NCBI GenBank assembly: GCA_000002445.1 | Contig: CM000207.1 | Span: forward strand, 2,560,001 to 2,624,000 | Length of the DNA stretch: 64,000 nt | Source: Trypanosoma brucei | Taxonomy: Eukaryota | Direction: 5' to 3' | Shown here: positions 4,638-53,579 of the stretch, one piece after another | Numbering within the stretch: the stretch's first letter is position 1 | How the letters are laid out: every line of letters begins with the position of its first letter | Notes under the pieces: generated by a model | What the model saw: the letters and a program-made list of their open reading frames with translations, nothing else | The model's database searches: none | What the model was told of the DNA's origin: nothing | Position numbers and translations under genes: made by a program

Positions 4638-4800
4638 TTGTGAGTGTGCATATACGAATATTATAATAAGAGCTGTAATAATAGTAATAATAATAATAAT
4701 GATAATGATAGATAATAATAATAATAAGAAAGTGTTGTGAGTGTGTGTATACGAATATTATAATAAGACAAGTAATAAAAAACATAATAAGAAAAGCAAT
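4631..4800 (+). repeat. VSG 70-bp repeat, about 2 units
   Basis: gagtgtgttgtgagtgtgcatatacgaatattataataagag followed by (TAA)n/(TGA)n runs, twice. Confidence 0.85.
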
Positions 4801-7050: not shown

Positions 7051-7109
7051 CACTTTTAAGAATTATTAGTAAAAGCTTTTTGCTTGATTTTATGAAATTT
7101 ATGAAAATT

Positions 7110-10797: not shown

Positions 10798-10833
10798 ATT
10801 TTCCACCGCCTTCCTTTAAGAAATTTTGCTATT

Positions 10834-10849
10834 TGATATATTTTGACAC
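10834..10849 (+). promoter_or_regulatory. VSG 3'UTR 16-mer variant
   Basis: tgatatattttgacac. Confidence 0.8.
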
Positions 10850-31100: not shown

Positions 31101-33388
31101 GTGCGCTGATGACCCTGACGATGTCAAAAGGGAGGCTTCCGAAAAGTGGATTGAACGGCATTTTTCACGGAGGGGGAAGGAGCTACCGCGGCGAGAGCAC
31201 TACGAATTGTGGACTGATGGATCCGTGTCCCTCGGTGAGAAGTCCGGAGCAGCTGCCCTGCTCTATAGAAACAATACGCTTATTTGTGCACCTAAAACCG
31301 GAGCAGGGGAACTCTCATGCAGTTACAGAGCGGAATGCGTAGCATTAGAGATAGAACTGCAACGGCTGCTGAAATGGCTTCCGGCATACAGAAGCACACC
31401 TAGCAGGTTGTCCATCTTCTCTGACTCGCTGTCAATGTTAACAGCACTGCGGACAGGCCCCCTAGCCGTAACGGACCCAATTCTAAGACGACTATGGAGG
31501 CTTCTGCTTCAAGTTCAGAGAAGGAAGATACGTATCCGACTTCAATTTGTGTTTGGCCATTGTGGCGTGAAACGGAATGAAGTTTGTGATGAGATGGCCA
31601 AAAAGGCCGCTGATTTACCACAGTTGCGAGACACATGGATCCCCGACATCATTGCTTATGCGAAGCGAGTGCTTAAGTCGGAAGAAGTCCATGAGAACAC
31701 TCATAGGTTTGGTATCACGGGCAACCACTTTCCAACAAAGCATAAAGAAGAACTGACGAGGGAAGAAGAAACGGCACTGGCACGCTTTCGGGTTGGGTCT
31801 TCAAGGCACTATGGATGGATGTTGCGAAAGATTAACCCGAGTGTGCCTCCACAGTGCCGATGGTGTAACCCGCAACATGCAGCGATAGGACCAACAATAC
31901 AAACAGCCCCAACTGTTGCGACACGCACTCTTCAAAGAACCTCCGAACCGACCAAATGTACGGAATGTGATGCCACATACCAATGCCGCTCGAGTACTGT
32001 AACGCACATGGTAAACAAACATGGCTTTGTGCGAGCTGATGCCCTCCGGAGGATCAAATACGGCGATGCAACACCTGCAGTGGATATCCCCCCGGAGCCC
32101 CCTCCAGTGGTGGCGATCGTTCCTCTACCATCGAGCACACGAGTCCCGATGAGACCGCAGGTACTTCATTGTACCATCTGTGCCTCCAAATTCGCAGTGC
32201 CAGGCCGACTATTACACCACCTTAGAACAATACATGGTATAGGCAGCGGTAGTTGCCGCGTGAAAAGGGGGCGAGAGAACGAGGACTCAGTGCAAGGAGA
32301 TGGTAGAGCCCCAGCAGCGCCAGTCTCTCAGGATACACGGAAGCTGCCGTTTCAATGTGACCTGTGCGAGGCGAGCTTCGGTACACGCTCTTCCCTGTCA
32401 CTACACAAGAAATTCAAACATAAGAGCATAGTGACGGAGGACGGTACCGTAGTGGTGGTGCAATTCCCTCGTAAGCGTGCCCGTGAGGGAAACGTTGACG
32501 CCACTGGGAAAGGAGAGGTGCAGTGTGGTGTGTGTCAAAAAGTGCTCAGTTGCAGGGACTCCCTCATCCGACATTGTAAGGCTTTTCACAAAGGTGAGGG
32601 AGTCGAGCTTAAATGCAGCAAAAGCACAAAATTTTGTGCCACTGATTCCCCGCATACAAACACATCCATGTTGGTGTGCCCGACATGCGGAAGGCAGTGT
32701 GCTAGCAAAACTGGCCTCACCCTACATCAAAATAAGATGCACGGTATGAAGGTAGAGCGCGCTGTTACCAGCCAACGCGGCGACTGCGAAGAAACGTCGC
32801 TGCACTTGATGAGCTGCCCCGGTTTGAAGGAGTTACGTGTCAGGTTTGCGGTAGAAGGTGAGTGTGTGCAGGATGTATGTTTCTCTAAAAGGCTGGCGCA
32901 GTTTCTCATTGCGGTTGAACGGAACCTGCCGCAGGTGAAGTCCTCACCTAAGGTAACAGTCATACAACCCACTCTCCCTTCTGCAACTTCCCCCCTTATT
33001 GCCGAGTGTGGAGCTAGCAGGAAAAGCACCGGACGCAGGAATAGTCCAGACACCCTCAGAGACAGAGAGGGTATGCAGTCAACAAGCAACAGGAACAGAA
33101 AGAGGGGGAGAGAATAATAAACGAATAACAAAAATCAAAACAAAAGGATTGCTAATTGACATCTTTTGGAGAGTCCGGAGTGGGAGGCTTCTCGCCCCAT
33201 CTGCTGTATTCCGTTCAACTGCGGAGCTACAACAAAAATTATAGAGGGTGTATTAGGCCGAAAAAAAAAGGGAGACTCTGCCACAGTCGCCAGACCGATA
33301 GCATCTCAGGGCTCTACGGTGATGGCTGATGGCCGCGCCAGTGGGGGGAAACTCTCACGAAGGCACGAAGAAAATTCAAGAAAAAAAT
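28135..33388 (+). mobile_element. ingi, full length (about 5.25 kb)
   Basis: The 5' end ccctggtgatgctggtcacatcaacgtggtgccagg... is the RIME/ingi 5' terminus. There is a single long ORF. The 3' end is ...cacgaaggcacgaagaaaattcaagaaaaaaa. No TSD is detectable. Confidence 0.9.
28360..33117 (+). CDS. ingi polyprotein ORF, uninterrupted 1585 aa: 2A-like leader, AP-endonuclease, reverse transcriptase, RNase H, four C2H2 zinc fingers
   Basis: MLLSGDVEENPGP (2A-like D-x-E-x-NPGP). Endonuclease-like WNCAGL...LSETRM. RT motifs FRPGCSTLEQLL, FVDYEKAFDTVDHD and FADDLTLLA. RNase H motif WTDGSVSLGEKSGAAA. Fingers HCTICASKF...HHLRTIH, FQCDLCEASF...HKKFKH, VQCGVCQKVL...RHCKAFH and CPTCGRQC...LHQNKMH. Confidence 0.9.
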   Translation: MLLSGDVEENPGPSLRGMQWNCAGLSQGKRLALHKTLVDERIAFCLLSETRMTPGEAAFFSVAGYQHHGIARNCKGGGVSILMREDLPVETGMAVVGRIERVHATIHPARGTALTVTSAYIPPKHTFTATDLDTLLTTDGAQLIGADANAHALAWDRASPPNTKGETLTQWCIDNQFLVCNTGECTRYTRHHGESTPDVTLSRNFTVYTWTSLYSPDSDHHNIFFDVIVGDDTDALSCPRLRKPMYAWLKANWRNFRLKVDELCRKIGREKNVNTLEQKLSSAIRTATNVSVPRGCRATPPHWTPALAKIDEEIAGCAPSHRREKLVATRKQILDRTTKKRWSTLCSRLAVSDCCSWHIVKKVYAPRPLTTLAVLVDNAAITDYHQAERFSKLYSSRARRHPDSHPPAPIKTIASEFSPITMAELWRSIKLLPTGSAAGPDCLYNEAIQHLGRTALNVVLRLFNESLRTGVVPRAWKTGVIIPILKAGKKAEDLDSYRTVTLTSCLCKVMERIIAARLRDTVESQLTPQQSGFRPGCSTLEQLLHVRAALCRPTHQYRTGAVFVDYEKAFDTVDHDKIARGMHRMKVSPHIVKWCVSFLSNRTGRVRFKEKLSRSRTFERGVPQGTVLGPIMFIIVMNSLSQRLAEVPLLQHGFFADDLTLLARHTERDVINHALQCGLNVVLQWSKEYFMSVNVAKTKCTLFGCIERHPLTLQLDGERIGADRIPKLLGVTFQCQQGMATHAAETRRKMDFRLLQIVSISASTWGPRRQVLRAFYLALVQAHTMYGIKVWYWDASERSRDLLASAQHKASRIIAGIPHGTRKEDSLLEANLLPLKTATLVHSMKFMLMCESRGGCLRRSAEEAYHSKHPVRAQHSRIMRSYPHLRIEPREHPLETPTLRHSCRPLFHTQIKPVCADDPDDVKREASEKWIERHFSRRGKELPRREHYELWTDGSVSLGEKSGAAALLYRNNTLICAPKTGAGELSCSYRAECVALEIELQRLLKWLPAYRSTPSRLSIFSDSLSMLTALRTGPLAVTDPILRRLWRLLLQVQRRKIRIRLQFVFGHCGVKRNEVCDEMAKKAADLPQLRDTWIPDIIAYAKRVLKSEEVHENTHRFGITGNHFPTKHKEELTREEETALARFRVGSSRHYGWMLRKINPSVPPQCRWCNPQHAAIGPTIQTAPTVATRTLQRTSEPTKCTECDATYQCRSSTVTHMVNKHGFVRADALRRIKYGDATPAVDIPPEPPPVVAIVPLPSSTRVPMRPQVLHCTICASKFAVPGRLLHHLRTIHGIGSGSCRVKRGRENEDSVQGDGRAPAAPVSQDTRKLPFQCDLCEASFGTRSSLSLHKKFKHKSIVTEDGTVVVVQFPRKRAREGNVDATGKGEVQCGVCQKVLSCRDSLIRHCKAFHKGEGVELKCSKSTKFCATDSPHTNTSMLVCPTCGRQCASKTGLTLHQNKMHGMKVERAVTSQRGDCEETSLHLMSCPGLKELRVRFAVEGECVQDVCFSKRLAQFLIAVERNLPQVKSSPKVTVIQPTLPSATSPLIAECGASRKSTGRRNSPDTLRDREGMQSTSNRNRKRGRE

Positions 33389-34399
33389 TTAGCTGTTGTT
33401 GGTAGTGCCATAACTGTCGGCTCTGCGGTCTGATAATGCTGATTTGCTGCTGAGATTAGACCGCTGATCTGCACTCCTAGAGCTGTCGCCTCCGCTGTTT
33501 TCGCTGGTATTTCGTCTAGTATTTTAGCTGCTTCTTCTAGTTTTGAGGCCCATGGTTTATTTACCCCCACATCTCTCTGGTTGCCGCGTAATATTTCGTG
33601 TACTTTATGCATAAGTTGCTGGTCGCCCCGCTATTTAATGTGGCAGCTTCGGCTCCTAGTAAATGTTCTACTGTCTTTCCCTCCTTTGCTGTTTGCACGC
33701 GGGCTTCTAGGCTTGCTATGACTAACATGATCACTGTCCCTGTGTGTTTGCTGCTTTCGCCTCTGTGGCGCCAGCCTTTTACTTTTGTTTCGGCTGCTAG
33801 CGGCGCGCTTCCCCAACCTACAGAAGTTCCTGTATTTTTGTATTTGTCGCTGTTTCGACCAGCAGAAAGCCAGAAGTGCCAAAGAATGTCGTTCCAAACT
33901 GACATGCTTGCATTTTCCGCGGACTCCGAGGTCCAGGCAGTTGCTTGCTAGAGTGTTTTGGTCGTCTCGGCTTTGAAGTCAGTTGCTCCTTCGCCCTACA
34001 GCGCCTCTGAAATCTTTTCCTTTCGGCCTTGCTTAACCCTGTCGATATTTCTTGTTTGAGCCTGGTGTAGGTGTTGCCAAGTGGTTGCAAGCCGTTTAAC
34101 GTGTCATTTAAATTTTTTTCAGCAGTTATTCTTGCCCAGTTTTCGATTAGTCTCGGATTTTTTTGTAGCGAGGCCTTTCCGTTTACGGGTTTGTTTAGTT
34201 TTGTTTCTGCTCAACCCATTTGTTCCACTTTGTTACCCAGTTTTTTTAGGTTTTCCTCTTTGTGTTTTGTTTTCCCATTTACTGTTTGCCCCTCAGCCTT
34301 CGAATAAGCTTTGTCAGTCCTGGCTGCTGGTTGACATATTCATCTGGTTTAGATTCTCGATGTCAGCGGTGAAGTCGACGACTGCGGTGGGCTGCTCCC

Positions 34400-37300
34400 C
34401 GCCTGCTCCCTGAATGTTGACGAAAGTGCAGTGCAGCCCGAAGTCTGCCGCATCCTTCTCTTGCAGAGTGACTTCTCTGCGGCGTAAAGAAAGCAGCGCC
34501 GCCGTAATGGTCGTTGCTAAAAAGCTTCGTGCATTGTCGTTGCTATTTGGTAGTTGAACCGGGTTCTGCCGCTTATGTTGTGAAGGTTGCTTGTGGTCTC
34601 TGCTGTCACTCACTCGGTATAGGTTTTTAAAATCCGAAAAATTGGAAGAAATATGGCTTCCATAATTCGTATATTGCGTCGGCAAAAAACATTTGGTCTG
34701 GTGGGAGAGATAGCACTTTATTCAACAATTCACCTTTTTCTTCTTTTTATATTTAAAATATCTGTTTTTTTTAACGGTCTCCGCGAGTGACTCTGAAAGT
34801 GTCTGCTAAAGTTATGGTGCATGTGCCGCCTGCGCTGTTCGGTCATCTATGGATTGCATTGGTGCACAAAACTCGCTTTCAAAATCCATGCAGAGTACAT
34901 GTTGATCCCTTATCTGCTCTGCTTCCCTTGGGAACTTATTTGTGAACCTGGCTCTGTTGTGCCTTGCGTATGGTTGAAAACTTCGCCTATTCACTACGTG
35001 TCATGGTATAGTGGATTGTAGGCTAGTTGTTAAAACTGCTTTGTTTTTTCCTTCTTTGGTTCTTGTTGTCCGATATGGTCTGTTTTTTGTGGCTGTTTGT
35101 GGTTTTCTATCTGGTTGCATCTCCTCTTCTTGCAGGTTGAGCTGGTATTTAAATTCCCCTCATGTGCTTGTACCATTATTGGTTAGCATTATCAGCGTCA
35201 TTAATTTCGGCGTTTGCTATTCTACCGCTGAAAAGCCGTTGTATCCTCGGAGTTTTTCAGAGTGATAAGAGCCAACACTGTTTAAGCTGGCGACAGCGTA
35301 CAGAGTTCTCTTTTGCTCTGATCATTGCTTTCTCTTCCTCTTGACATTTTTGTGCTAGTAATTTGCTTCAAGAGAACGAAAGGTGGCGTGCGAGGTTGAT
35401 TTTGGATATCATTTGTTGGTCCTCAACGGTTGAAAAAAAGGAGCACGTACCACTGCTGTATTTTATGCTATGACGATATAAAATGCAAGCAGTTACACTA
35501 CATTGTTTGCAGTTTATAATTCCGATCCATATTGACCTATATTTGTATCGAAAAAAGATTTAAATTTATTGTGTTTTCTCTACTCTATCAGCTTCAAAAA
35601 TGCGTGACAGCTTTTGACTCAAAATAAAAAATAATGCTTTTTGTTTCTCAAGAACTTGAGTGGCCTTTTGGTTTTTTCCTGAGTTGTACGCGACAGTATT
35701 TAAGCTCCCTTTTAAGTTTAAGTAATTTAGTCCACAAAGCTGCATTTGCTTTATTGATTTGCACCATTAGTTTTGCGTCAGAAATAACGCTTAAATTAAT
35801 TAATCGCTCTCTGAAAATTTTTAGTGTCTGTCCAGTATACCCACATGGAACTGTTGTTGTTTTATGACAAATTTTTTTACTTCATAAACCTCTTACAACG
35901 GCACATAAATACTACACATTAACAATTTTCGCTTTTTTATTTTTATTTTGATGTCTTTAAAAATTTTAAAATAACATTTTCCTTAAAATTTTTCTTGATA
36001 ACATCATATTGTTACCCACGAATATCTTCGACTGTTAGTATATCCAATGACAAGAAAAACTTCAAAATAACATCAAACTTACCTAATCCCTTCTGCCATA
36101 TTCTTTTGTTTCTGAACATTTTTATTTACAGCTGGATGTTTGGATCCACTATAAGATCAAAAAATACAGTTTACACCATCTTTGGCTTTTTCTATCCTTT
36201 TTCAGTTAAATATGGAGCAAAATCTCCACCTGCGTAATTTGCTTCTTTTATGTGCTGTTGCGCATGTCTTAGCTTCATGCTGTACTTACTTTCCTCTTTT
36301 TTGTTTTCTGTTGCTTTTGCGTGTAGTGTACCGCCTTTATTTTGTTTGCGAGGTCTTCCACTTTGTCATTTCTCTGGAAACCGCAATGCAAAAACACAAA
36401 CTGAAACGACATGGATACTCTCAGTTTCATGAAGTGTATGATCAGATCCTAAATGCGTCGTAGCATGGTATCTGTCACTTCTGTAGGATCCGTTTTAAGT
36501 GCCATTAATAAAGATAACATGTCTGTAAATATTGCCACTTTCGTTTTTATGCTCTCGTTGATCTTTATTACTGTTTTGAGTTTCATAAGTCCTGCATCCA
36601 TGGCTACACACTCGGCTCTGTAGCTTCATGCTAACCTGACTGCTCCTTTTTTCACTTTTACCGCATTACCTTGTCAAGGATGTATTATCGCGGCGGCACC
36701 AGAGGGTTCGTCCAGTATCACTGACCCATCTGTCCACACTTGGTAATTGTAGTCTTTGAGTTTACGTAACTTTTGAATTGTGTGTCTTTTCTCGCTGTCG
36801 GAGGCATCAGAATGGAGACCATCTGGTGCTGTAGTGTTGAGGTATGGTCTCCTCGCCAGTTGCAATGCGCTTGCCGTGTGTGGTTCCTCCGGTTCGTCTA
36901 CTTCCTCATACAAGTATGACACATTCTCCAGGAGCGTGCATATCATATGACTAGGTGGGAAGATTCTTTCCACTGTGTCGGATGATGCCTTACTATTCGC
37001 CTTCCTTGTTCAATAGTATTATATTGCTCGTCTATGAGTAATATAATCTATCTGGTGAAGGAGGGCCTCCTTTATGACAACATGCCTGCTCGCTTACGTT
37101 GGAACACCCGCAATAACATGTGCCTCCTGCGCTTGCACTCGTTCAAGCTGCTTTTTGTCTGATTGAAAGGCATTGAACCACCATGCCGCAATACCATAGC
37201 ATAATTTTTCCTGGATTAAGGCTAAAAAAAAATGCTCTAACACTTTCTTTACTCGCTCCCTATTCAGGTGATGCAACAGCCCTTAGTTTCATTAATCTCA

Positions 37301-39797
37301 TAGTTGCTGCTGTTTGCAGGGTGTGAGCATTTTTTCTTACTCAGTCCTTTGTTTGGCTGCATTGTCACCCCAAGGAGTCTGTGGTTTCTTGTCTAATTTA
37401 ATCTGCGCTCTCCTAGAAATAAGTGTAGTGAGTCGCGGTCTCTCACCACAAAGAACATGTATTCCGCTTTTTCTGAAGACACATCCATACAGTCCTCTCC
37501 TAACCAGCTCACTATACAATACATCCCTGTTTGTACCGTCTGCCGAATAGCTTCCTGGTCAGTTTTAGAGCGTACTATCGTGAGGCCGTTTGCGAAGAAG
37601 CAGTATTTAAGGACTGTCATGGCATTTAGTTTCGCACTGAGAGAGTCCATTGCGATAATGAATAGCAACAGCCCCAACACGGAACATTGTGGAACACCAC
37701 ACGTGAGTTATATTTTCTTTGAGAGGGATGTTGTTTATTCGTACTACTTTAGTCCGTCCCTCAAGGAAATTTGCAACCCATGCAATAAAGTGCATGCCTA
37801 TCTCATATCTTTTTAGTGCATCCATTATGCACCCGTGATACACAGAGTCAAATGCCCTCGCATAATCTGTGAATACCGCTGCAGCTGTTTCTCCTGCTAT
37901 TCTATGTGTCACGAAGTCTGTGAGTGCCATCAGGGCCTCTAACTTAGACCTCCCTGGACGAAAAGCGGATTTCTGTAGTTGCGCCTTACATTCTACCGTG
38001 TCTCGTATGCGTCTCGCTACAATCCTTTCTATTAGCTTACAGAGAGTGCTATTGAGCGTGATGAGCCGGAATGATGACATACACTTGGCAGGTTTGTTGT
38101 TCTTGAGTAGTGGGACGATAACTCCATGCTTCCATTTCTCCGACACCCGGTTTCTCTGTAGGCTACAGTTGAATTGCTTGAGGACACGTTTCTTGCTACA
38201 GCGTCCTAATTGCTTCAACCATTCACAATGTATATTGTCCTTACCGGAGCAAGTGCCTGAAGAGAGTTCCTTCAGTTCTGTCTCAAGTTTTGCAATCGTT
38301 ATTAGTGCGAATTCTCCACTCACTCGTTAACGTGTACTCATGTGAAGAGCATCTGGTGCTTTTGTCGACCTCTCTCGATACATCTGTGCTAGTTTATTAA
38401 CTTGCTGTCTACATGTTAAAATGTGGTCGTTTACTACCAGAACCGGAGATGTCAGTGGATTCGATGCGTCAATGGACTTAACTAAATTCCAACTTTTTGT
38501 ATCGGTCACTGACATATTTGACACATTTTTCTTCCACCGTTGTAGGGATTTTTCAGCGAGAACCTTCCTTCTCTTGTATATAAGGGAACCTCTCTGTGCT
38601 TTTAACTTGTATATTCTTTTATTGTTGTGTCAATACGGTCAGTTCTCGTGTCCAAAACGGTGGCGATTCTTCCTTACCTTTCTGTGTTTTTTCTTTGTTG
38701 CTGTGCGAATGCCTTTAGCCACAGCCTCATTCATAGGATCCACATTCTTTCTTGATTTCCTTAATTTTTACACCATTGTTACACTATACACTTTTCTAAA
38801 CTTCCGTCAATTTGCTTTGTTGCAAACATAAAACACCTTTAGTGGCTTTGTAATGGCGATAATTTCTACACCAATCCCAGTACACACCTCGAACGGTTAT
38901 CCGGTAGTGGTGACTATCTGGACTGAGTTTTATCTCCCATCTTGTGACTTCGCAGTCTCTGTACATCGTAACGTCGGGAGACGACCTGGTTTCCATGTGA
39001 GCCGTTCTTCTCGTTGGTGTTCCATCATTTGCAATTTTGATATCATTTTGTATACATCAGTCTACAATGCATTCTCCTGCTGTATTATTGGGGCGAAGCG
39101 GGTCCCATAAGTTATGATGTGCGTTGGTATCGAATCCTATTATTAGTGATACAGTTCAACTTTGAAGGCTTTCAAGCGTGGAGTTAGTGACATTTTTGTT
39201 CTGTGGGAAGTAAGCTGATTTGACAGTTAAAGTTGTATCAGATGAGGACATCAGTGTTGCCGAGACTCTTTCCGGCTGTCTTTCCGTCCTACGGACATTG
39301 GATGACTCCCACGCCATCTTTGATTATAATGGAAACATTGCAAAAATGTGGAGAGCGTGCCATTTCCATGTGTTTGTATCCACTAATTTTCAATGCGCAG
39401 TATTCTTTTGCTGCCAAGTGAGTCTCCTGCAATAAACAAAAAAATACCATATCCTCGTGGAGCTTCTTCTCAAGGCCATTCGCTTCACCTTGGAGCAACC
39501 CCCAGAATTCCACTGGAATGCACAAATCATGGGACAGGGATCCTGTTCCATATCTCCGTTAAGAAGTAGTAGAAGCCGATGTATCTCAACTAAGGCACGC
39601 CTGCACATGCAAAGGAGCAATCTAATATATTTATTCACTCCAGAGTGCCGATGCTGCTACTTTCTCCTTTTTTGGTCGCTGAAAGCCTGTTACCAGCCCC
39701 AATCCTGTTGAACTATGTATAATGCGTGCACTTGGCTTCATCCTGGACGAAGTAATAGACCCTGGAACTACGATGAGGTGGCCGACGTCACCAGCGA
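34400..39797 (-). mobile_element. Degenerate ingi-related element (DIRE); 3' boundary uncertain
   Basis: On the minus strand the 5' end at about 39797, cgctggtgacgtcggccacctcatcgtagttccagggtc..., is homologous to the ingi/RIME 5' terminus. Fragmented ORFs follow in ingi order: a degenerate 2A-like LLLNGDMEQDPCP (39390..39638); endonuclease-like CLLQETHL...YKHMEMARSPHF; RT (37393..38323: FRPGRSKLEALMAL, VFTDYARAFDSVYHG, FFANGLTIV); and RNase H (36674..36973: WTDGSVILDEPSGAAAIIHP, then SYRAECVAM near 36610). The stops and frameshifts are numerous. Confidence 0.7.
36610..39638 (-). pseudogene. DIRE EN/RT/RNase H ORF remnants
   Basis: Minus ORFs 39390..39638, 39289..39525, 38796..38996, 37607..38323, 37393..37680, 37094..37276 and 36674..36973 each align to successive parts of the ingi ORF. 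Confidence 0.7.
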
Positions 39798-39858
39798 TAT
39801 TTCATAATTTTTATAAAATTCAGCAAATAAATTTTTGACAATAATCCTTAAAAGAAAT

Positions 39859-41350
39859 TCAAAACAGAAAGCTCATAAAATATGCAGCAATTAAAGAAAA
39901 CTTCTTATTTACAGGAAAATTGGGATCTTTGCAAGTGCTACTTTTCGATTTACAACTGATGTCCTTTTCGCAAGTTCCTTTGTCTGTTCGATGTTTTGAA
40001 CATTTCTCTTCGTTTTTGTCGCCTCCTTGAGCTTTCGCCTGTGCACCTTGTTGTTCTTTTGCCTTTTCGGATATAATAAGCATTTCTTTCTTTATAAGCT
40101 GCACTTTCGTCCCATTTTCATGGTGGTTTGCATGGCGAGTTATTCATGTTGGAAACCTTGCACGCTTGTTCTTTAGACACTCGTTGCTTTGCGGAAGGAC
40201 TTGTCGTTGTTCTGGCCCCTTTAATTTAGTGTAGAACCAAAAAACCGTGTTTTCTAGGGCTGCCGACCGGGAAAGTAACGTCTTCGTCGCTTCTTTTGTA
40301 GGTAGGTGCGCCGCGTTTCTGTTTATGTGGTCAATAGCTCTAGCTCTGGTGTTATTTGGCTAAGCCACGGCGTGTCCGTGTCACTTGTTACTTGTCCTGG
40401 AAGTTTGCCGTTCCATTTGTAGCATCCTTCCGTTTCTCTGTTGGCCGTCACACGAGTTTTTGAATGCCCCAGGTAAGAATTAGTGTCATCTCTTGTGACG
40501 TATTTCACGACGTCTTTTAATATTTCTGTTGGTGAACTTGCCAGTGCATTGGTGTCGCCGTCCGCCATGCCCTTTTTAAACACTTTTTGTATTAGACAGT
40601 CTGTCGGTTCAGCGTTATCCGCCCAGTCCACCGTGGCTCTGACACCTTTTCAGCACGTGTGCTGAGTTTCGCCTGATTTTGAGCCGCACACACGGGCTAG
40701 TGCTGCTGCTAGCCCTTTTGTTTTGGCATCGTTTATTGTCTGTTGCGCTGCCCTCAGTCGACTGTGCGTGAGCTGTGATTTGCTTAGTATTGGTACTAGC
40801 ACCGTTAGAAATTTCCTTTTATGCGCCGCAGTCAACTTGGCAGTTGCAGCCTTCAAGTCGTTGTGATTATTTGCTTTTATCTTATCCAGTGGTTTTGCGC
40901 CTTCTGGCCAATTGGTGTAGAGGCTGTGCTACGGTTTTGTCTCCTTCAAAGTCTCTGGTGATTGATTCTGACAACTTTGCTTGTCGTCTTTGTGTTTAAA
41001 AACCTGCAAAACTGATGCGTTCGCAGTACTGAGGTTTAAAGCGTGCAGTTTGTTGAATGCTTCTGACTCAGTTGTCGTCGCAGTAGACTGTTTATAACTA
41101 GTTGTTGCGGCTGCCGCTAGCTCGCAAAGCCGTCGGGCCGCTTCCCTGTTGCCTACCGCTGGCACGGTTTCTGTTACCTGTCTTGATTCAAAAATAAACG
41201 CTGTTGTCAATAATACTGCTTGCTTTTCTCACATCATCCCTTGCTTTCGACTTGTGCTGGTGAAGGTGTGCAGTTTGGGATATCATCGTGTTATTGCAGC
41301 GGAATGCACCACATGTTCATTTGGTAAAAAACTGCAGTTCCTTTGACTTC
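39859..41350 (-). pseudogene. VSG pseudogene, fragmented; N-terminal boundary uncertain
   Basis: The C-terminal ORF 39859..40104 reads ...CSKHRTDKGTCEKDISCKSKSSTCKDPNFPVNKKFSLIAAYFMSFLF*. Upstream minus ORFs (40323..40631, 40650..40856, 40929..41210) are Ala/Thr/Lys-rich and VSG-like. No intact signal peptide was found. Confidence 0.5.
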
Positions 41351-42039
41351 CTGTAGCTGCACGTACTGATCTTCGCACTCCTATTTCAGTTAATATCCAC
41401 TTTAAACAAAGTCTAATATACTTTTACGATCTAAATACATATTTCCTTTTAATTCTCTTTATTTTACACTCAACTATGTAAACCACAGTCATTCTATTAT
41501 TTTTGATTCATCCTGTTTTTAACAATCTTAAAAGGAGAATCCGCCATCATATTTAAAATTTCAGTCGCCCCCATCATATATACAATAGTATCTATCCATC
41601 TTTGAGTAAAATAAACTGCGTTAGTATCTTCAGTATTATTTTCTTCTGTGCTGTGCTGCGCTGTCGGGAATCTATCCGTTACATTCTGTATTTCCTTTCC
41701 ACCTTTTAGTTTTCTGTCACTGTTTCTGCGGAAGGTTTGGCGACTCCATTTGGCTTGTATGCTGCACTTCGTCTCTTCATTGTTGCTTCCTTGGTCACAT
41801 CTTTATGTATTATAATGACAATTTCTATCTTTGTGTTTAAACTTGCGCATATTCCATTTCCTTGTTTCTATCTGTTTCTGTCTTTTTACTTGTCTTCAAT
41901 AATAATATTCCACTCGCTCTCTAACGCTCTCCATCCCTCTTCCACCCACCGTCAAGTTAGGTACTTAGTCAAATTTTACTTGTCCCACTTTTTTTGGCTA
42001 CCTCTATTTTGGATTTACAGTAATTTTATTCTACAACTC

Positions 42040-44038: not shown

Positions 44039-44050
44039 TTTGTTTGAAGC
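44039..44050. repeat. 12-bp target-site duplication, left copy (TTTGTTTGAAGC)
   Basis: It is identical to 49309-49320, immediately after the ingi poly(A). Confidence 0.85.
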
Positions 44051-47000
44051 CCCTGGCGATGCCGGCCACCTCAACGTGGTGCCATGGTCCAGTACCCCGT
44101 ATCATCGGGGGAAGCCAAGAGCCAGCAACGTTCCTCTCATGGGGAACACTGCTGTGCTCCGGCTACGGCATCATACAGCACAGGGATCAGCAGCGTCTTG
44201 CTGGGACACCGTTTTTCATTTGTCGGTCCCTGGGCACGTGCCAGCGTGCCATCAGCAGTATCATCCGCACTAAGATGCTGCTGTCCGGTGATGTGGAAGA
44301 GAATCCCGGCCCGTCGTTGCGCGGGATGCAGTGGAACTGCGCCGGGCTATCTCAAGGAAAGAGATTAGCACTCCACAAAACCCTTGTTGATGAGCGGATC
44401 GCCTTTTGTCTGTTGAGCGAGACAAGGATGACGCCTGGAGAGGCGGCTTGCTTTAGCGTTGCTGGCTACCAACATCACGGAATAGCTCGTAACTGCAAAG
44501 GAGGTGGTGTATCAATACTAGTGAGGGAGGACCTACCAGTCGAGACCGGTATGGCCGTTATTGGTCGCATTGAACAAGTGCATGCAACAATTCACCTTGC
44601 ACGTGGAACGGCGCTGACTGTCACGTCGGCATACATCCCACCAAAACACACCTTCACGGCAACTGACCTAGATACGCTTCTGACGACTGACGGTGCCCAG
44701 CTCATCGGTGCAGACGCTAACGCACACGCGTTGGCATGGGATCGCGCGAGCCCACCAAATACCAAGGGTGAAACCCTCACACAGTGGTGCATTGACAACC
44801 AGTTTCTGGTATGTAACACTGGTGGGTGCACCAGGTACGCGCGCCACCACGGGGAGTCCACCCCTGATGTGACGCTGTCAAGGAATTGCACAGTGTACAC
44901 GTGGACATCGCTGTATTCTCCCGATAGCGATCACCATAACATATTTTTCGACGTTATCGTTGGAGACGACACAGATGCACTGAGTTGCACGCGGCCTCGA
45001 ATGCCCATGTACGCATGGCTAAAAGCTAACTGGAGGAATTTCCGTCTCAAGGTTGACGAGCTCTGCAGGAAAATTGGTAGAGAGAAGAACGTCAACACCC
45101 TGGAACAGAAATTGAGCTCCGCCATCCGCATTGCGACGAAGGTCTCCGTCCCCCGTGGCTGCAGAGCAACGCCACCACATTGGACACCTGAGCTCGCGAA
45201 ACTCGATGAAGAGATCGCTGGATGCGGACCCTCCCACCGAAGGGAAAAGTTGGTAGCCACGCGTAAGCAGATCCTGGACCGTACCACAAAGAAGAGATGG
45301 AGCACGCTATGCTCCAGACTTGCGGTGTCAGACCGCTGCAGTTGGCACATGGTCAAGAAGGTATATGCGCCACGACCACTAACAACACCGGCTGTACTTG
45401 TAGATAACGCGGCCATCACGGACTACCGTCAAGCTGAGAGGTTCAGTAAACTGTACTCGTCCCGTGCAAGAAGGCACCCCGACTCACACCCACCGGCACC
45501 AATAAAGACGATAGCGAGTGAGTTCAGTCCCATCACGATGGCTGAACTACGGAGATCGATCAAACTGCTACCGAGTGGATCCGCAGCCGGACCTGATTGC
45601 TTATACAACGAGGCACTGCAACATCTCGGCAGAACAGCGCTGAATGTTGTTCTGAGGCTATTCAATGAGAGCCTACGAACGGGAGTCGTGCCGCCTGCAT
45701 GGAAGACTGGTGTTATCATCCCCATCCTGAAGGCCGGAAAAAAGGCGGAGGACCTCGATTCTTACAGGACTGTGACGCTCACGAGCTGTCTCTGCAAAGT
45801 CATGGAACGCATAATTGCCGCGAGGCTTAGAGACACTGTTGAGTCCCAGCTGACGCCGCAGCAATCAGGCTTTCGCCCCGGATGCTCAACGCTCGAACAA
45901 CTCCTGCACGTCCGCGCTGCCCTCTGCCGTCCCACGCACCAATCTCGTACGGGTGCTGTATTCGTTGACTACGAGAAGGCATTTGATACAGTAGACCACG
46001 ACAAAATTGCGAGGGAAATGCACAGAATGAAGGTATCACCCTACATTGTGAAGTGGTGCGTATCATTTCTGAGTAACCGAACTGGCAGAGTGAGATTCAA
46101 GGAGAAGCTTTCCAGAAGCAGAACATTTGAGCGAGGAGTGCCACAAGGAACTGTCCTTGGCCCAATCATGTTCATTATTGTCATGAACTCGTTGAGCCAA
46201 CGCCTTGCAGAAGTGCCGTTACTGCAGCACGGATTCTTTGCAGACGACCTAACGCTACTTGCGAGGCACACAGAGAGGGATGTCATCAACCACACACTAC
46301 AATGCGGTCTAAACGTGGTGTTACAGTGGTCAAAAGAGTACTTCATGTCTGTCAACGTAGCGAAAACAAAGTGCACACTCTTCGGGTGTATAGAGCGCCA
46401 CCCCCTTACATTGCAACTGGACGGCGAAAGAATAGGAGCTGACAGGATACCGAAGCTTCTAGGAGTAACATTCCAGTGTCAGCAGGGGATGGCAACACAT
46501 GCGGCCGAAACGAGACGCAAGATGGACTTCCGACTACTGCAGATAGTGTCCATCTCAGCTTCTACATGGGGGCCAAGACGACAAGTACTGAGAGCTTTTT
46601 ATCTAGCACTCGTACAGGCACACACCATGTATGGCATTGAGGTATGGTACTGGGACGCTTCGGAACGGAGTCGCGACCTCCTCTCAGCAGCACAACACAA
46701 AGCCAGTCGCATCATAGCCGGCATACCGCATGGGACGCGCAAAGAGGACTCTCTGCTGGAAGCAAACCTCCTGCCACTCAAGACGACCACTCTTGTGCGC
46801 AGCATGAAATTCATGCTGATGTGTGAGTCACGAGGCGGATGTTTGCGGCGCAGTGCTGAAGAAGTATACCACAGCAAACACCCAGTCAGAGCCCAACATT
46901 CCCGCATCATGCGGTCCTACCCCCACCTCCGCATTGAGCCACGCGAGCACCCACTAGAGACATCGACGCTCCGCCACAGCTGCCGACCGATATTTCACAC

Positions 47001-49308
47001 GCAGATAAAGCCTGTGTGCGCTGATGACCCTGACGATGTCAAAAGGGAGGCTTCCGAAAAGTGGATTGAACGACATTTTGCACGGAGGGGGAAGGAGCTA
47101 CCGCGGCGAGAGCACTACGAATTGTGGACTGATGGATCCGTGTCCCTCGGTGAGAAGTCCGGAGCAGCTGCCCTGCTCTACAGAAACAACACGCTGATTT
47201 GCGCACCTAAGACAGGAGCAGGGGAACTCTCATGCAGTTACAGAGCGGAATGCGTAGCATTAGAGATAGAACTGCAACGGCTGCTGAAATGGCTTCCGGC
47301 ATACAGAAGCACACCTAGCAGGTTGTCCATCTTCTCTGACTCGCTGTCAATGTTAACAGCACTGCAGACAGGCCCCCTAGCCGTAACGGACCCAATTCTA
47401 AGACGACTATGGAGGCTTCTGCTTCAAGTTCAGAGAAGGAAGATACGTATCCGACTGCAATTTGTGTTTGGCCATTGTGGCGTGAAACGGAATGAAGTTT
47501 GTGATGAGATGGCCAAAAAGGCCGCAGATTTACCACAGTTGCGAGACACATGGATCCCCGACATCATTGCTTATGCGAAGCGAGTGCTTAAGTCGGAAGA
47601 AGTCCATGAGAACACTCATAGGTTTGGTATCACGGGCAACCACTTTCCAACAAAACATAAGGAAGAACTGACGAGGGAAGAAGAAACGGCACTGGCACGC
47701 TTTCGGGTTGGGTCTTCAAGACACTATGGATGGATGTTGCGAAAGATCAACCCGAGTGTGCCTCCACAGTGCCGATGGTGCAACCCGCAACATGCAGAGA
47801 TAGGGCCAACAATACAAACAGCCCCAACTGTTGCGACACGCACTCTTCAAAGAACCTCCGAACCGACAAAATGTACGGAATGTGATGCCACATACCAATG
47901 CCGCTCGAGTGCTGTAACGCATATGGTAAACAAACATGGCTTTGTGCGAGCTGATGCCCTCCGGAGGATCAAATACGGCGATGCAACACCTGCAGTGGAT
48001 ATCCCCCCGGAGCCCCCTCCAGTGGTGGCGATCGTTCCTCTACCATCGAGCACACGAGTCCCGATGAGACCGCAGGTGCTTCATTGTACCATCTGTGCCT
48101 CCAAATTCGCAGTGCCAGGCCGACTACTACACCACCTTAGAACAATACATGGCATAGGCAGCGGTAGTTGCCGCGTGAAAAGGGGGCGAGAGAACGAGGA
48201 CTCAGTGCAAGGAGATGGTAGAGCCCCAGCAGCGCCAGCCTCTCAGGATACACGGAAGCTGCCGTTTCAATGTGACCTGTGCGAGGCGAGCTTCGGTACA
48301 CGCTCTTCCCTGTCACTACACAAGAAATTCAAACATAAAAGCATAGTGATGGAGGACGGTACCGTGGTGTTGGTGCAATTCCCTCGTAAGCGTGCCCGTG
48401 AGGGAAACGTTGACGTCCCGGGGAAGGGCGAGGTGCAGTGCGGTGTGTGCCAAAAAGTGCTCAGTTGCAGGGACTCCCTCATCCGACACTGCAAGGCTTT
48501 TCACAAAGGTGAGGGAGTCGAGCTTAAATGCAGCAAAAGCACAAAATTTTGTGCCACTGATTCCCCGCATACAAACACATCCATGTTGGTGTGCCCGACA
48601 TGCGGAAGGCAGTGTGCTAGCAAAACTGGCCTCACCCTACATCAAAAGAAGATGCACGGTATGAAGGTAGAGCGCGCTGTTACCAGCCAACGCGGCGACT
48701 GCGAAGAAACGTCGCTGCACTTGATGAGCTGTCCCGGTTTGAAGGAGTTACGTGTCAGGTTTGCGGTAGAAGGTGAGTGTGTGCAGGATGTATGCTTCTC
48801 CAAAAGGCTGGCGCAGTTTCTCATTGCGGTTGAACGGAGCCGGCCGCATGTGAAGTCCTCACCTAAGGTAACAGTCATACAACCCACTCTCCCTTCTGCA
48901 ACTTCCCCCCTTATTGCCGAGTGTGGAGCTAGCAGGAAAAGCATCGGACGCAGGAATAGTCCAGACACCCTTAGAGACAGAGGAGGTATGCTGTCAACAA
49001 GCAACAGAAACAGAAAGAGGAGAAGAGAATAATAAACGAATAACAAAAATAAAAACAAAAGGATTGCTAATTGACATCTTTTGGAGAGTCCGGGGTGAAG
49101 GGATTCTCGCCCCATCTGCTGTATTCCGTTCAACTGCGGAGCTACAACAAAAATTATAGAGAGTGTGTGTGTTAGGATGAATGAAAAAGGGAGACTCTGC
49201 CACAGTCGCCAGACCGATAGCATCTCAGGGCTCTACGGTGATGGCTGATGGCCGCGCCAGTGGGTGGAAACTCTCACGAAGGCACGAAGAAAATTCTAAA
49301 AAAAAAAA
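44051..49308 (+). mobile_element. ingi, full length, flanked by a perfect 12-bp TSD
   Basis: The 5' end is ccctggcgatgccggccacctcaacgtggtgcc. The 3' end is ...cacgaaggcacgaagaaaattctaaaaaaaaaaa. It has one uninterrupted ORF and is about 97-98% identical to the copy at 28135. Confidence 0.92.
44275..49032 (+). CDS. ingi polyprotein ORF (2A-like, EN, RT, RNase H, 4x C2H2)
   Basis: It starts MLLSGDVEENPGP at 44275 and reads through to the stop at 49032. In this copy the frame is also open upstream to 44017 because the in-frame stop seen in copy 2 (tggctagc) is absent (tgccagc). The start at the conserved ATG is inferred. Confidence 0.88.
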   Translation: MLLSGDVEENPGPSLRGMQWNCAGLSQGKRLALHKTLVDERIAFCLLSETRMTPGEAACFSVAGYQHHGIARNCKGGGVSILVREDLPVETGMAVIGRIEQVHATIHLARGTALTVTSAYIPPKHTFTATDLDTLLTTDGAQLIGADANAHALAWDRASPPNTKGETLTQWCIDNQFLVCNTGGCTRYARHHGESTPDVTLSRNCTVYTWTSLYSPDSDHHNIFFDVIVGDDTDALSCTRPRMPMYAWLKANWRNFRLKVDELCRKIGREKNVNTLEQKLSSAIRIATKVSVPRGCRATPPHWTPELAKLDEEIAGCGPSHRREKLVATRKQILDRTTKKRWSTLCSRLAVSDRCSWHMVKKVYAPRPLTTPAVLVDNAAITDYRQAERFSKLYSSRARRHPDSHPPAPIKTIASEFSPITMAELRRSIKLLPSGSAAGPDCLYNEALQHLGRTALNVVLRLFNESLRTGVVPPAWKTGVIIPILKAGKKAEDLDSYRTVTLTSCLCKVMERIIAARLRDTVESQLTPQQSGFRPGCSTLEQLLHVRAALCRPTHQSRTGAVFVDYEKAFDTVDHDKIAREMHRMKVSPYIVKWCVSFLSNRTGRVRFKEKLSRSRTFERGVPQGTVLGPIMFIIVMNSLSQRLAEVPLLQHGFFADDLTLLARHTERDVINHTLQCGLNVVLQWSKEYFMSVNVAKTKCTLFGCIERHPLTLQLDGERIGADRIPKLLGVTFQCQQGMATHAAETRRKMDFRLLQIVSISASTWGPRRQVLRAFYLALVQAHTMYGIEVWYWDASERSRDLLSAAQHKASRIIAGIPHGTRKEDSLLEANLLPLKTTTLVRSMKFMLMCESRGGCLRRSAEEVYHSKHPVRAQHSRIMRSYPHLRIEPREHPLETSTLRHSCRPIFHTQIKPVCADDPDDVKREASEKWIERHFARRGKELPRREHYELWTDGSVSLGEKSGAAALLYRNNTLICAPKTGAGELSCSYRAECVALEIELQRLLKWLPAYRSTPSRLSIFSDSLSMLTALQTGPLAVTDPILRRLWRLLLQVQRRKIRIRLQFVFGHCGVKRNEVCDEMAKKAADLPQLRDTWIPDIIAYAKRVLKSEEVHENTHRFGITGNHFPTKHKEELTREEETALARFRVGSSRHYGWMLRKINPSVPPQCRWCNPQHAEIGPTIQTAPTVATRTLQRTSEPTKCTECDATYQCRSSAVTHMVNKHGFVRADALRRIKYGDATPAVDIPPEPPPVVAIVPLPSSTRVPMRPQVLHCTICASKFAVPGRLLHHLRTIHGIGSGSCRVKRGRENEDSVQGDGRAPAAPASQDTRKLPFQCDLCEASFGTRSSLSLHKKFKHKSIVMEDGTVVLVQFPRKRAREGNVDVPGKGEVQCGVCQKVLSCRDSLIRHCKAFHKGEGVELKCSKSTKFCATDSPHTNTSMLVCPTCGRQCASKTGLTLHQKKMHGMKVERAVTSQRGDCEETSLHLMSCPGLKELRVRFAVEGECVQDVCFSKRLAQFLIAVERSRPHVKSSPKVTVIQPTLPSATSPLIAECGASRKSIGRRNSPDTLRDRGGMLSTSNRNRKRRRE

Positions 49309-49320
49309 TTTGTTTGAAGC
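49309..49320. repeat. 12-bp target-site duplication, right copy (TTTGTTTGAAGC)
   Basis: Matches 44039-44050. Confidence 0.85.
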
Positions 49321-53320: not shown

Positions 53321-53579
53321 CATAAAATAAACAAATGAAGAAAAAGTTAGAGTATTAATCATTTTTCATACTCTATTACCCTGCTAAGTTTCATTCATAG
53401 ACCACAATAATATCAAAATGTCATAATTGTTACTAATTTGTACATTTTCATTGAATGTGTCGTAATCTATCATATTTTAGAGAAATTTACCAAGTTTTCT
53501 CAGAACAGCAAATTTTAATAAATTCCATAAAATTGAAAAAAAATCTTTTAAAATTCTTAAAAAACTAACAATCTCGTAA

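What the first reader, a model, noticed from the sequence alone, without database searches (positions are those of the whole stretch)
39700..39915. DIRE 5' end sits inside a VSG 3'UTR at the position of the conserved 16-mer
On the minus strand the VSG pseudogene stop (39859) is followed by about 55 nt of typical 3'UTR, ending ...ataaaaattatgaaatat. The next base starts DIRE sequence homologous to the ingi/RIME 5' terminus. TGAAATAT resembles the first 8 nt of the 16-mer TGATATATTTTAACAC, so the element appears to have inserted within, or recombined at, the 16-mer. The DIRE also retains a decayed 2A-like LLLNGDMEQDPCP. This shows the 2A leader is ancestral to the ingi/DIRE lineage.
Basis: inference. 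Interest (0 to 1): 0.5.

Follow-up and report, generated by a model that had tools for sequence, protein, structure and literature searches.

The report
Old retroposon in VSG 3'UTR
A long-dead, Tvingi-type retroposon (a TbDIRE) inserted into the 3' untranslated region of a silent trypanosome surface-antigen pseudogene and later lost its own 3' end; this is an ordinary example of known biology, and the suggested link to the conserved 16-mer is not the best-supported reading.

Summary
The sequence facts are correct. On the minus strand a VSG pseudogene ends at a TGA (39861-39859). A 62-nt VSG-type 3'UTR follows, and base 39796 is nucleotide 1 of an ingi-clade retroposon (Pr77). The decayed 2A peptide LLLNGDMEQDPCP is at 39569-39531.

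The element is Tvingi-like: 50-60% amino-acid identity to T. vivax elements, against about 33% to Tbingi. It is preceded by a perfect match to the published target signature of that subclade (TTTT-N5-A^A-N11). The 5' junction is therefore an original retrotransposition junction, not a recombination joint.

Aligned from stop codon to junction, the whole UTR is collinear with the intact UTR at 7051-7109. The junction falls at the 5' edge of where the 16-mer should begin (score 43, against 31 for the mid-16-mer register). TGAAATAT is best read as the tail of a (TTTATGAAA)2 UTR repeat, not as half of the 16-mer.

The displaced 16-mer half cannot be found because the element is 3'-truncated at about 36332. 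Its last ~2 kb, poly(A), the 3' target-site duplication and the rest of the UTR are gone. TTTTAACAA at 35035 is a chance-level match.

A 2A leader across the ingi clade is already published. Interest is low.

The parts
39859..41240 (-). VSG pseudogene. VSG_B N-terminal domain fragment at 41210-40929, C-terminal domain with GPI signal at 40104-39862, stop TGA at 39861-39859. The start coordinate is approximate.
   Evidence: Pfam PF13206 E=7.6e-8 and PF10659 E=7.9e-12. The ORFs are in different frames.
39797..39858 (-). 62-nt remnant of the VSG 3'UTR, lacking the 16-mer. It contains the TTGCTGAAT motif and two degenerate TTTATGAAA repeat units.
   Evidence: Collinear with the intact UTR 7051-7109: 49/64 identities, score 43 against a null maximum of 14. 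No 16-mer at up to 3 mismatches. Repeat reading.
39797..39818 (-). Target-site signature TTTTATAAAA|ATTATGAAATAT. The predicted 12-bp target-site duplication is 39808-39797 (ATTATGAAATAT), and the first-strand nick lies between 39809 and 39808.
   Evidence: Perfect match to TTTTxxxxxA^Axxxxxxxxxxx (PMC3820030 section 3.3). Regex test and chance rates.
39718..39796 (-). Pr77 / 76-79-bp signature. This is the complete 5' end of the retroposon.
   Evidence: nhmmer E=2.8e-23, model positions 1-78. Same register as Tvingi in L002 at 5405.
39531..39569 (-). Decayed 2A-like leader LLLNGDMEQDPCP. The motif DxExNPGP has become DMEQDPCP.
   Evidence: Translation. Same element offset as the Tvingi and Tbingi 2A.
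36332..39796 (-). TbDIRE fragment, the 5' 3.46 kb of a Tvingi-type element: leader, APE, RT (38323-37607) and RNase H. It has 31-69 stop codons per frame.
   Evidence: tblastx is collinear with Tvingi, with a net offset of 2 nt over 3456 nt. RVT_1 E=2.8e-11. Best protein hits are T. vivax RT at 50-60% identity. Last homologous residue ends at 36332. Stop counts.
36290..36332 (-). 3' breakpoint zone. Tvingi homology ends here and GC content falls from 40-47% to 26-33%.
34541..36331 (-). Unassigned 1.8 kb. It is AT-rich from 36300 to 35450 and about 42% GC from 35450 to 34541. It is not detectably retroposon, 70-bp repeat or VSG UTR.
   Evidence: No tblastx or blastn match to Tvingi or Tbingi 3' parts. 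No C2H2 motif. No 70-bp repeat. No UTR-profile hit above 0.1 bit. No Pfam hit.
35027..35035 (-). TTTTAACAA after an A-rich tract. It was a candidate for the displaced 16-mer half and was rejected as chance.
   Evidence: The 9-mer at up to 1 mismatch occurs 41 times against 33 expected. The reconstructed empty site scores 6.9 bits, against 20-33 for real UTR ends. Not in the PSSM top 5.
33393..34540 (-). Next VSG_B pseudogene on the same strand. Its 3' side is cut off by the 3' end of Tbingi#2.
   Evidence: PF13206 profile positions 3-63 (E=7e-5) and 253-314 (E=5e-4). The ingi poly(A) ends at about 33392.

Best explanation
A Tvingi-type (ingi6-subclade) autonomous non-LTR retroposon inserted by target-primed reverse transcription into the AT-rich 3'UTR of an array VSG, 62 nt after the stop codon. 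No element of this subclade is active in T. brucei today. Its endonuclease nicked at a TTTT-N5-A^A site that the UTR's own TTTATGAAA-type repeats provide. The full-length cDNA was joined at element nucleotide 1. In the closest intact UTR, this point is the 5' edge of the 16-mer, so the whole 16-mer was probably pushed to the element's 3' side. The element then decayed: it accumulated many stops, and the 2A NPGP became DPCP. A later deletion or ectopic recombination at about 36332 removed its 3' ~2 kb, the poly(A), the 3' target-site duplication, the rest of the UTR with the 16-mer, and probably the 70-bp repeat. The remaining stump is now joined to unrelated AT-rich DNA upstream of the next VSG pseudogene. 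Shown: VSG and UTR identity, the exact 5' end, the subclade, the signature match, and the loss of 3' homology. Inferred: the order of events, the register relative to the 16-mer, and the truncation mechanism.
For: VSG and UTR identity. Exact 5' end at nucleotide 1 of Pr77. Subclade: best RT hits are all T. vivax at 50-60% identity, the element is collinear with Tvingi with a 2-nt net offset over 3456 nt, and identity to Tbingi is only about 33%. Perfect ingi6 signature, with chance 0.11% window-wide and 0.87% in VSG UTRs; PMC3820030 states that TbDIREs of this subclade carry this signature. Register: the both-end-anchored alignment peaks at k=-1..+1 (43/40/40) against 31 at k=+8, and the module alignments support this. 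Truncation: the Tvingi 3' 2 kb still finds 5-6 blocks in each of the four more distant Tbingi copies but nothing on the DIRE strand beyond 36341. The last homologous residue ends at 36332. GC content shifts there. There is no C2H2, poly(A)+TSD, 70-bp repeat or UTR-profile hit. Precedent in the same window: Tbingi#1 is 3'-truncated and fused to a 70-bp repeat, Tbingi#2 has non-matching flanks, and Tbingi#3 shows that a perfect TSD is readily detectable.
Against: The register rests on a single close relative (U7110) among only 12 UTRs. With only the junction anchored, k=-37, k=-1 and k=+8 score 40, 36 and 35. 8-mers within 1 mismatch of TGATATAT are rare in UTR context (0.11%), so the 16-mer reading is not excluded. 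No other TbDIRE copy and no empty-site paralogue could be retrieved. A family-specific divergent 3' region is therefore not formally excluded. The origin of 36331-34541 is unknown.
Confidence: 0.6

Rival explanations
1. The element inserted inside the 16-mer between positions 8 and 9. TGAAATAT is the mutated first half, and the second half (TTTAACAC) was displaced to the element's 3' side.
For: There is a 7/8 match ending exactly at the junction, and such near-matches occur at only 2 of 1752 UTR-context positions. The upstream context TTTGCTGAA-N13 resembles U57286's TTTGCTGAAG-N12-16-mer, and k=+8 scores 35 in the junction-anchored test. The TTTT-N5-AA signature is equally satisfied in this register.
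Against: With both ends anchored, k=+8 scores 31 against 43 and needs an 8-nt gap. In global 40-nt alignments it scores 13-16 against 23-28 for the repeat-module register. No displaced half is detectable above chance.
Confidence: 0.2
2. The junction lies about 37 nt upstream of the 16-mer. In this reading the flank is the first TTGCT-(TTTATGAAA)2 module of a U57286, U42268 or U63514-type UTR.
For: This is the best junction-anchored score overall: 40 at k=-37 for U57286, and 33 for U42268 and U63514. It gives 26/31 ungapped identities. The distance from stop to module end is 69 nt in U57286, against 62 nt here.
Against: Whole-UTR alignment to U57286 scores only 26, against 43 for U7110.
Confidence: 0.12
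3. The element is essentially full length (about 4.76 kb). It ends in the A-rich tract at 35050-35036, and the following TTTTAACAA is the displaced 16-mer half. Its 3' third is simply too diverged to recognise.
For: The A-rich tract is followed directly by TTTTAACAA. A length of 4761 bp is close to the '~5000 bp' quoted for DIREs. The reconstructed empty site is the best of the composites tested, at 6.9 bits.
Against: 6.9 bits equals the window's background, and real UTR ends score 20-33 bits. There is no 12-bp TSD copy: 3/12 matches by eye, and no hit at up to 3 mismatches. The sequence after TTTTAACAA does not resemble post-16-mer flanks, and the site is not in the PSSM top 5. The more distant Tbingi still aligns to the Tvingi 3' part while this region does not. 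The GC content drops abruptly at 36300.
Confidence: 0.06
4. The VSG-UTR/DIRE junction is a recombination joint and not an insertion junction.
For: The surrounding 12 kb is a patchwork: a chimeric Tbingi#2, an inverted ingi fragment, a truncated VSG, and a strand switch of the VSG array.
Against: The junction is at exactly nucleotide 1 of the element. It is also preceded by a perfect endonuclease target signature with P of about 0.01. A random breakpoint would not be expected to produce both.
Confidence: 0.04

Closest known systems
TbDIRE (degenerate ingi/L1Tc-related elements of T. brucei; 73 copies of about 5 kb), specifically those of the Tvingi/Tcoingi ('ingi6') subclade (PMC3820030 and its reference 12)
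   Same: Pr77 at the 5' end, the APE-RT-RNase H order, heavy degeneration, and the upstream TTTT-N5-A^A signature that the paper reports for this TbDIRE group.
   Different: This copy is only 3.46 kb. It lacks the zinc-finger C-terminus, the poly(A) and the 3' TSD.
Tvingi of T. vivax (5419 bp, potentially active)
   Same: It is collinear to within 2 nt over 3456 nt, at 40-61% amino-acid identity. The 2A leader is at the same offset and the 5' terminus is identical in register. The one clean Tvingi TSD seen (ACAAGGAAATAT) even shares its last 7 nt with the predicted TSD here.
   Different: It belongs to a different species. Tvingi retains a long ORF, a canonical NPGP, the C2H2 fingers and a 20-nt poly(A).
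Tbingi/RIME insertions with 12-bp TSD and relative site specificity (ingi4 signature)
   Same: The TPRT mechanism and the 12-bp TSD logic are the same. Tbingi#3 in this window shows a perfect TSD.
   Different: Its target signature is different (AxxxxxxxTxxxGTxGGxTxxx^xTxTxxTxxxxx), and that signature is not matched here. Amino-acid identity is only about 33%.
VSG 3'UTR 16-mer (TGATATATTTTAACAC), essential for VSG mRNA stability (PMC5698767)
   Same: The insertion sits in a VSG 3'UTR at about the place where the 16-mer should start. The gene now lacks the motif.
   Different: There is no evidence that the motif itself was targeted or split. The VSG is a pseudogene in a silent array, so no expression consequence is expected.

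Membership tests
ingi-clade non-LTR retroposon / TbDIRE | Conserved 76-79-bp 'Pr77' signature at the 5' terminus | tested here: met
   nhmmer E=2.8e-23, model positions 1-78, starting at 39796.
ingi-clade non-LTR retroposon / TbDIRE | APE-RT-RNase H coding region collinear with an autonomous ingi-clade element | tested here: met
   tblastx against Tvingi and Tbingi. Pfam RVT_1 E=2.8e-11.
ingi-clade non-LTR retroposon / TbDIRE | Degenerate: no long ORF, many stops and frameshifts | tested here: met
   The longest ORF is 238 aa. There are 31-69 stops per frame over 1071 codons.
ingi-clade non-LTR retroposon / TbDIRE | Length of about 5 kb with a 3' poly(A) tail | tested here: not met
   Homology ends at element position about 3465 (window 36332). 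There is no poly(A) and no 3' blocks. I interpret this as post-insertion truncation of a member, not as non-membership.
ingi-clade non-LTR retroposon / TbDIRE | Flanking 12-bp target-site duplication | tested here: not met
   No copy of ATTATGAAATAT at up to 3 mismatches follows an A-tract in 36341-34540. The positive control Tbingi#3 has a perfect TSD.
ingi6 (Tvingi/Tcoingi) subclade | Upstream signature TTTTxxxxxA^Axxxxxxxxxxx | tested here: met
   TTTTATAAAA|ATTATGAAATAT is an exact match. Chance is 0.11% window-wide and 0.87% in UTRs.
ingi6 (Tvingi/Tcoingi) subclade | RT closer to Tvingi/Tcoingi than to Tbingi or L1Tc | tested here: met
   All 16 hits are T. vivax at 45-61% identity. Identity to Tbingi is 31-37%. 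No formal tree was built, and Tcoingi and L1Tc were not compared directly.
Functional 2A 'ribosome-skipping' peptide | C-terminal motif D(V/I)ExNPGP | tested here: not met
   The sequence is DMEQDPCP, with N to D and G to C in NPGP. It is positionally homologous to the Tvingi and Tbingi 2A, so it is a relic.
Functional 2A 'ribosome-skipping' peptide | Recoding activity in translation | not testable with these tools
   This needs an in vitro translation reporter. From established mutagenesis cited in PMC3708506, changes in NPGP are expected to abolish activity.
Canonical VSG 3'UTR | Follows a VSG C-terminal domain and stop codon, and is homologous to other VSG 3'UTRs | tested here: met
Canonical VSG 3'UTR | Contains the 16-mer TGATATATTTTAACAC | tested here: not met
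   There is no match at up to 3 mismatches in 39797-39861 or in 34540-36341, while 12 are found elsewhere in the window. There is also no profile hit.

The most novel reading that the evidence does not exclude
The most novel reading not excluded is that Tvingi-type (ingi6) retroposons had a real preference for the TTTATGAAA-repeat/16-mer boundary of VSG 3'UTRs. Two observations hint at this: the shared ...GAAATAT end of the only two readable TSDs, and the near-match of the canonical repeat to the TTTT-N5-AA signature. Under this reading, ancient retroposition would have repeatedly removed the mRNA-stabilising 16-mer and contributed to VSG pseudogenisation.
Probability: 0.05. Interest if true: 0.5.

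Novelty: already known. Interest (0 to 1): 0.12.

Why it matters
It matters little. Several things were already established: DIREs and ingi elements populate T. brucei subtelomeric VSG arrays, ingi-clade elements insert with relative site specificity and 12-bp TSDs, and the clade carries an N-terminal 2A leader. This locus is one clean worked example. It shows an authentic 5' insertion junction that matches the published subclade signature, followed by later 3' truncation in a recombination-rich strand-switch region. It would become interesting only if a genome-wide survey showed that VSG 3'UTRs or the 16-mer boundary are a preferred landing site.

Tried and rejected
(1) TTTTAACAA at 35035-35027(-) as the displaced 16-mer half. 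Rejected: the 9-mer frequency is at chance, the composite empty site scores 6.9 bits against 20-33 for real UTR ends, it is not in the PSSM top 5, and there is no TSD.

(2) The poly(A)-like tract at 34778-34771 followed by AGATATTTTAAATAT / ATTTTAAATAT as a 3' end plus TSD. Rejected: the composites score about 0 bits, and the site lies only about 230 nt from the next VSG start.

(3) TTTTGCTCCATATTTAACTG at about 36222-36203 as a decayed UTR end. Rejected: no profile signal.

(4) Searching for a 70-bp repeat as a marker of where host sequence resumes. None was found in 34500-36400.

(5) C2H2 zinc-finger relics and sensitive blastn/tblastx against the Tvingi and Tbingi 3' parts. None were found.

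(6) Retrieving empty-site paralogues and other T. brucei copies. The VSG C-terminal protein search found no candidate. Exact-protein look-ups of the DIRE RT ORF and the VSG C-terminal ORF found nothing. The primary subclade paper PMC2756862 is not held.

(7) Inferring extra target preference from T. vivax loci. Only one clean TSD pair was recovered from 7 loci, which is too few.

(8) Rfam at the junction: no hit.

(9) The first semi-global alignment had mis-set end gaps, and timed out. Both were replaced.

(10) The ingi4 (Tbingi) signature at this junction: not matched.
Full report
CONTEXT. The window is a Trypanosoma brucei-type silent VSG array. [quoted passage not shown] Seven copies lie on the + strand between 7 and 25 kb, and five lie on the - strand between 42 and 64 kb. 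70-bp repeats follow most of them by 120-400 nt. Four Tbingi copies or fragments are present, at 1-4499+, 27340-28135-, 28135-33392+ and 44051-~49306+. The finding lies in the strand-switch zone between the two VSG blocks.

OBSERVATION. Read on the minus strand, ORF 40104-39859 is a VSG C-terminal domain (PF10659, E=7.9e-12). ORF 41210-40929 is a VSG_B N-terminal fragment (E=7.6e-8) in another frame. This is therefore a VSG pseudogene ending at TGA 39861-39859. The next 62 nt (39858-39797) end in ...ATAAAAATTATGAAATAT. They are real VSG 3'UTR. A global alignment anchored at both the stop codon and the junction gives 49/64 identities with the intact UTR at 7051-7109, with score 43 against a maximum of 14 for 200 shuffles. 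Base 39796 begins CGCTGGTGACGTCGGCCACCTCATCG.... A Pr77 profile matches from model position 1 with E=2.8e-23. The register is identical to the 5' end of a T. vivax Tvingi that is bounded by a perfect TSD (L002 position 5405). The peptide LLLNGDMEQDPCP is encoded at 39569-39531.

WHAT THE ELEMENT IS. The region from 39796 to 36341 is homologous to Tbingi residues 1-1082 at only 31-37% identity. A database search with its 238-aa RT fragment (Pfam RVT_1, E=2.8e-11) returned only T. vivax reverse transcriptases, at 45-61% identity. Against a Tvingi copy the element is collinear to within 2 nt over 3456 nt. It carries 31-69 stop codons per frame, and its longest ORF is 238 aa. It is therefore a TbDIRE of the Tvingi/Tcoingi ('ingi6') subclade. 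PMC3820030 describes this group as extinct in T. brucei and lists 73 TbDIRE copies of about 5 kb.

THE 5' JUNCTION IS AN AUTHENTIC INSERTION JUNCTION. PMC3820030 gives the target signature of this subclade as 5'-TTTTxxxxxA^Axxxxxxxxxxx-3', where the 12 nt after the nick form the TSD. It states that TbDIREs of the subclade are preceded by this signature. The 22 nt before base 39796 are TTTTATAAAA|ATTATGAAATAT, which is an exact match. The pattern occurs at 0.11% of positions in the window and at 0.87% of positions in and around the 12 intact UTRs. The Tbingi (ingi4) signature is not matched. A junction at exactly element nucleotide 1, together with this signature, argues for target-primed reverse transcription and against a recombination joint.

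IS THE JUNCTION INSIDE THE 16-MER? TGAAATAT matches TGATATAT at 7 of 8 positions. However, TTTATGAAA is a tandem repeat in several of these UTRs (TRF rows at 7089, 42323, 57339 and 63572). The last 21 nt of the flank are (TTTATGAAA)2+TTT with 3 mismatches. With only the junction anchored, three registers score similarly: k=-37 (U57286) scores 40, k=-1 (U7110) scores 36, and k=+8 scores 35, against a null maximum of 26. In 40-nt global alignments the repeat-module registers score 23-28 and the k=+8 register scores 13-16. The strongest test anchors both ends. The whole UTR is collinear with U7110. The best endpoint is k=-1..+1 (scores 43/40/40), while k=+8 scores 31 and needs an 8-nt gap. The next-best UTR, U57286 at k=-37, scores 26. 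The best-supported reading is that the element sits at the 5' edge of where the 16-mer should begin, and that TGAAATAT corresponds to the TGAAAATT of the second repeat unit. This conclusion rests on 12 UTRs and one close relative. I therefore give the mid-16-mer model about 0.2 and the upstream-module model about 0.12.

WHY THE OTHER HALF CANNOT BE FOUND. I found TTTTAACAA at 35035-35027(-), directly after an A-rich tract. It does not hold up. The 9-mer at up to 1 mismatch occurs 41 times against 33 expected. A profile of the 12 real UTR ends scores them at 20-33 bits, but the reconstructed empty site (39797 joined to 35034) scores only 6.9 bits. That equals the best background hit, and every other composite or native sequence in 34400-36400 scores about 0. 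A PSSM of the 16-mer 3' half plus 12 downstream nt does not place 35035 in the top five. The best hits in the interval are at chance, with 0.35-1.6 expected. No copy of the predicted TSD follows an A-tract.

The reason is that the element is 3'-truncated. Homology to Tvingi ends at element position about 3465, which is window 36332. The Tvingi 3' 2 kb still detects five or six blocks in each of the four more distant Tbingi copies, yet it finds nothing on the DIRE strand between 36341 and 34540. No C2H2 finger survives. GC content drops from 40-47% to 26-33% at about 36300. The interval is bounded by a second VSG_B pseudogene starting at about 34540. It contains no 70-bp repeat.

Non-LTR elements are truncated at the 5' end by incomplete reverse transcription, not at the 3' end. 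This is established knowledge of TPRT. The loss here must therefore have happened after insertion. The same window shows that such events occur. Tbingi#1 is 3'-truncated and fused directly to a 70-bp repeat. Tbingi#2 has non-matching flanks. Tbingi#3 retains a perfect TSD, TTTGTTTGAAGC, which shows the method can detect intact junctions.

THE 2A CLAIM. The relic DMEQDPCP lies at element nt 243. This is the same offset as the Tvingi DVERNPGP and 2 nt from the Tbingi DVEENPGP. It is a decayed homologue, with N to D and G to C changes in the NPGP core. PMC3708506 already reports 2A-like sequences in Ingi, Tcoingi, Tvingi and L1Tc, and in a mollusc Ingi element, and discusses their common ancestry. 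A dead Tvingi-type copy adds nothing to that inference.

COMPARISON AND VERDICT. This is a member of a known family (TbDIRE, ingi6 subclade). It shows the published target signature, sits in a known type of location (a subtelomeric VSG array near a strand switch), and was disrupted by a known type of rearrangement. The VSG has lost the 16-mer that functional VSG mRNAs need for stability (PMC5698767). It is already a pseudogene in a silent array, so no consequence is expected. The only open and mildly interesting possibility is that ingi6-type elements favoured VSG 3'UTR repeat/16-mer boundaries. The sole hints are that the only two readable TSDs (ATTATGAAATAT here and ACAAGGAAATAT in T. vivax L002) share their last 7 nt, and that the canonical repeat nearly matches the signature. 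With n=2, this is a lead and not evidence.

LIMITATIONS. No T. brucei genome could be searched. No empty-site allele or paralogue and no second copy of this DIRE subfamily were obtained. The primary paper on the subclades is not held. PMC3820030 is internally inconsistent in one sentence about which elements are 'ingi6'. I followed its abstract, figure legends and remaining text, which assign Tvingi and Tcoingi to that subclade.

Noticed in passing
window 4560-4660 (+): Tbingi#1 is 3'-truncated about 150 nt short of its normal end. It is fused directly to a 70-bp repeat (...caaaaattatagag|agtgtgttgtgagtgtgcatatacg...), possibly through microhomology. This is a second retroposon in the window that lost its 3' end by recombination with VSG-array sequence.
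   Followed up: partly
window 27340-33392: Tbingi#2 (28135-33392, +, intact 1585-aa ORF) has no TSD: TCCGTGTATCCT at the 5' side and TTTAGCTGTTGT at the 3' side. Its 5' flank is an inverted ingi 3' fragment (27340-28135, -). Its 3' flank is a truncated VSG_B pseudogene. It looks like the product of ingi-ingi recombination or inversion at the strand switch of the VSG array.
   Followed up: partly
window 44039-49318 (+): Tbingi#3 is flanked by a perfect 12-bp TSD, TTTGTTTGAAGC. It has an uninterrupted 1585-aa ORF that is 96.7% identical to Tbingi#2. This is a recent insertion, on the opposite strand to the surrounding VSG genes.
   Followed up: yes
L002 (T. vivax SOPI01000420.1) 5394-5405 and 10829-10840: Two tandem Tvingi copies share the TSD ACAAGGAAATAT and sit immediately upstream of an HSP90-family gene. 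The TSD ends in GAAATAT, the same 7-mer as the predicted TSD in front of the window's DIRE.
   Followed up: partly
window 34541-36331 (-): These 1.8 kb of unassigned sequence lie between the DIRE stump and the next VSG pseudogene. They are very AT-rich (26-33% GC) from 36300 to 35450, then about 42% GC and strongly A-rich. There is no 70-bp repeat, no Pfam hit and no similarity to other intergenic regions, apart from two weak matches of about 40 nt (36046-36092 to 12942-12987, and 36276-36311 to 41682-41717).
   Followed up: partly
window 10834/12165 (+) and 58249/57286 (-): Pairs of 16-mers lie only 1.3 kb and 0.96 kb apart, which is too close for a full VSG between them. They are presumably VSG 3'-end fragments.
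   Followed up: no
window 53457-53505 (-): The best sub-threshold hit of the VSG-UTR-end profile (7.0 bits, E=0.48). It may be a badly decayed UTR end without a recognisable 16-mer.
   Followed up: no
PMC3820030 section 3.3: One sentence of the paper assigns L1Tc/NARTc/L1Tco to 'ingi6' and Tvingi/Tcoingi to 'ingi1'. Its abstract, figure legends and following sentences assign Tvingi/Tcoingi to ingi6. The labels appear to be swapped in that one sentence.
   Followed up: no
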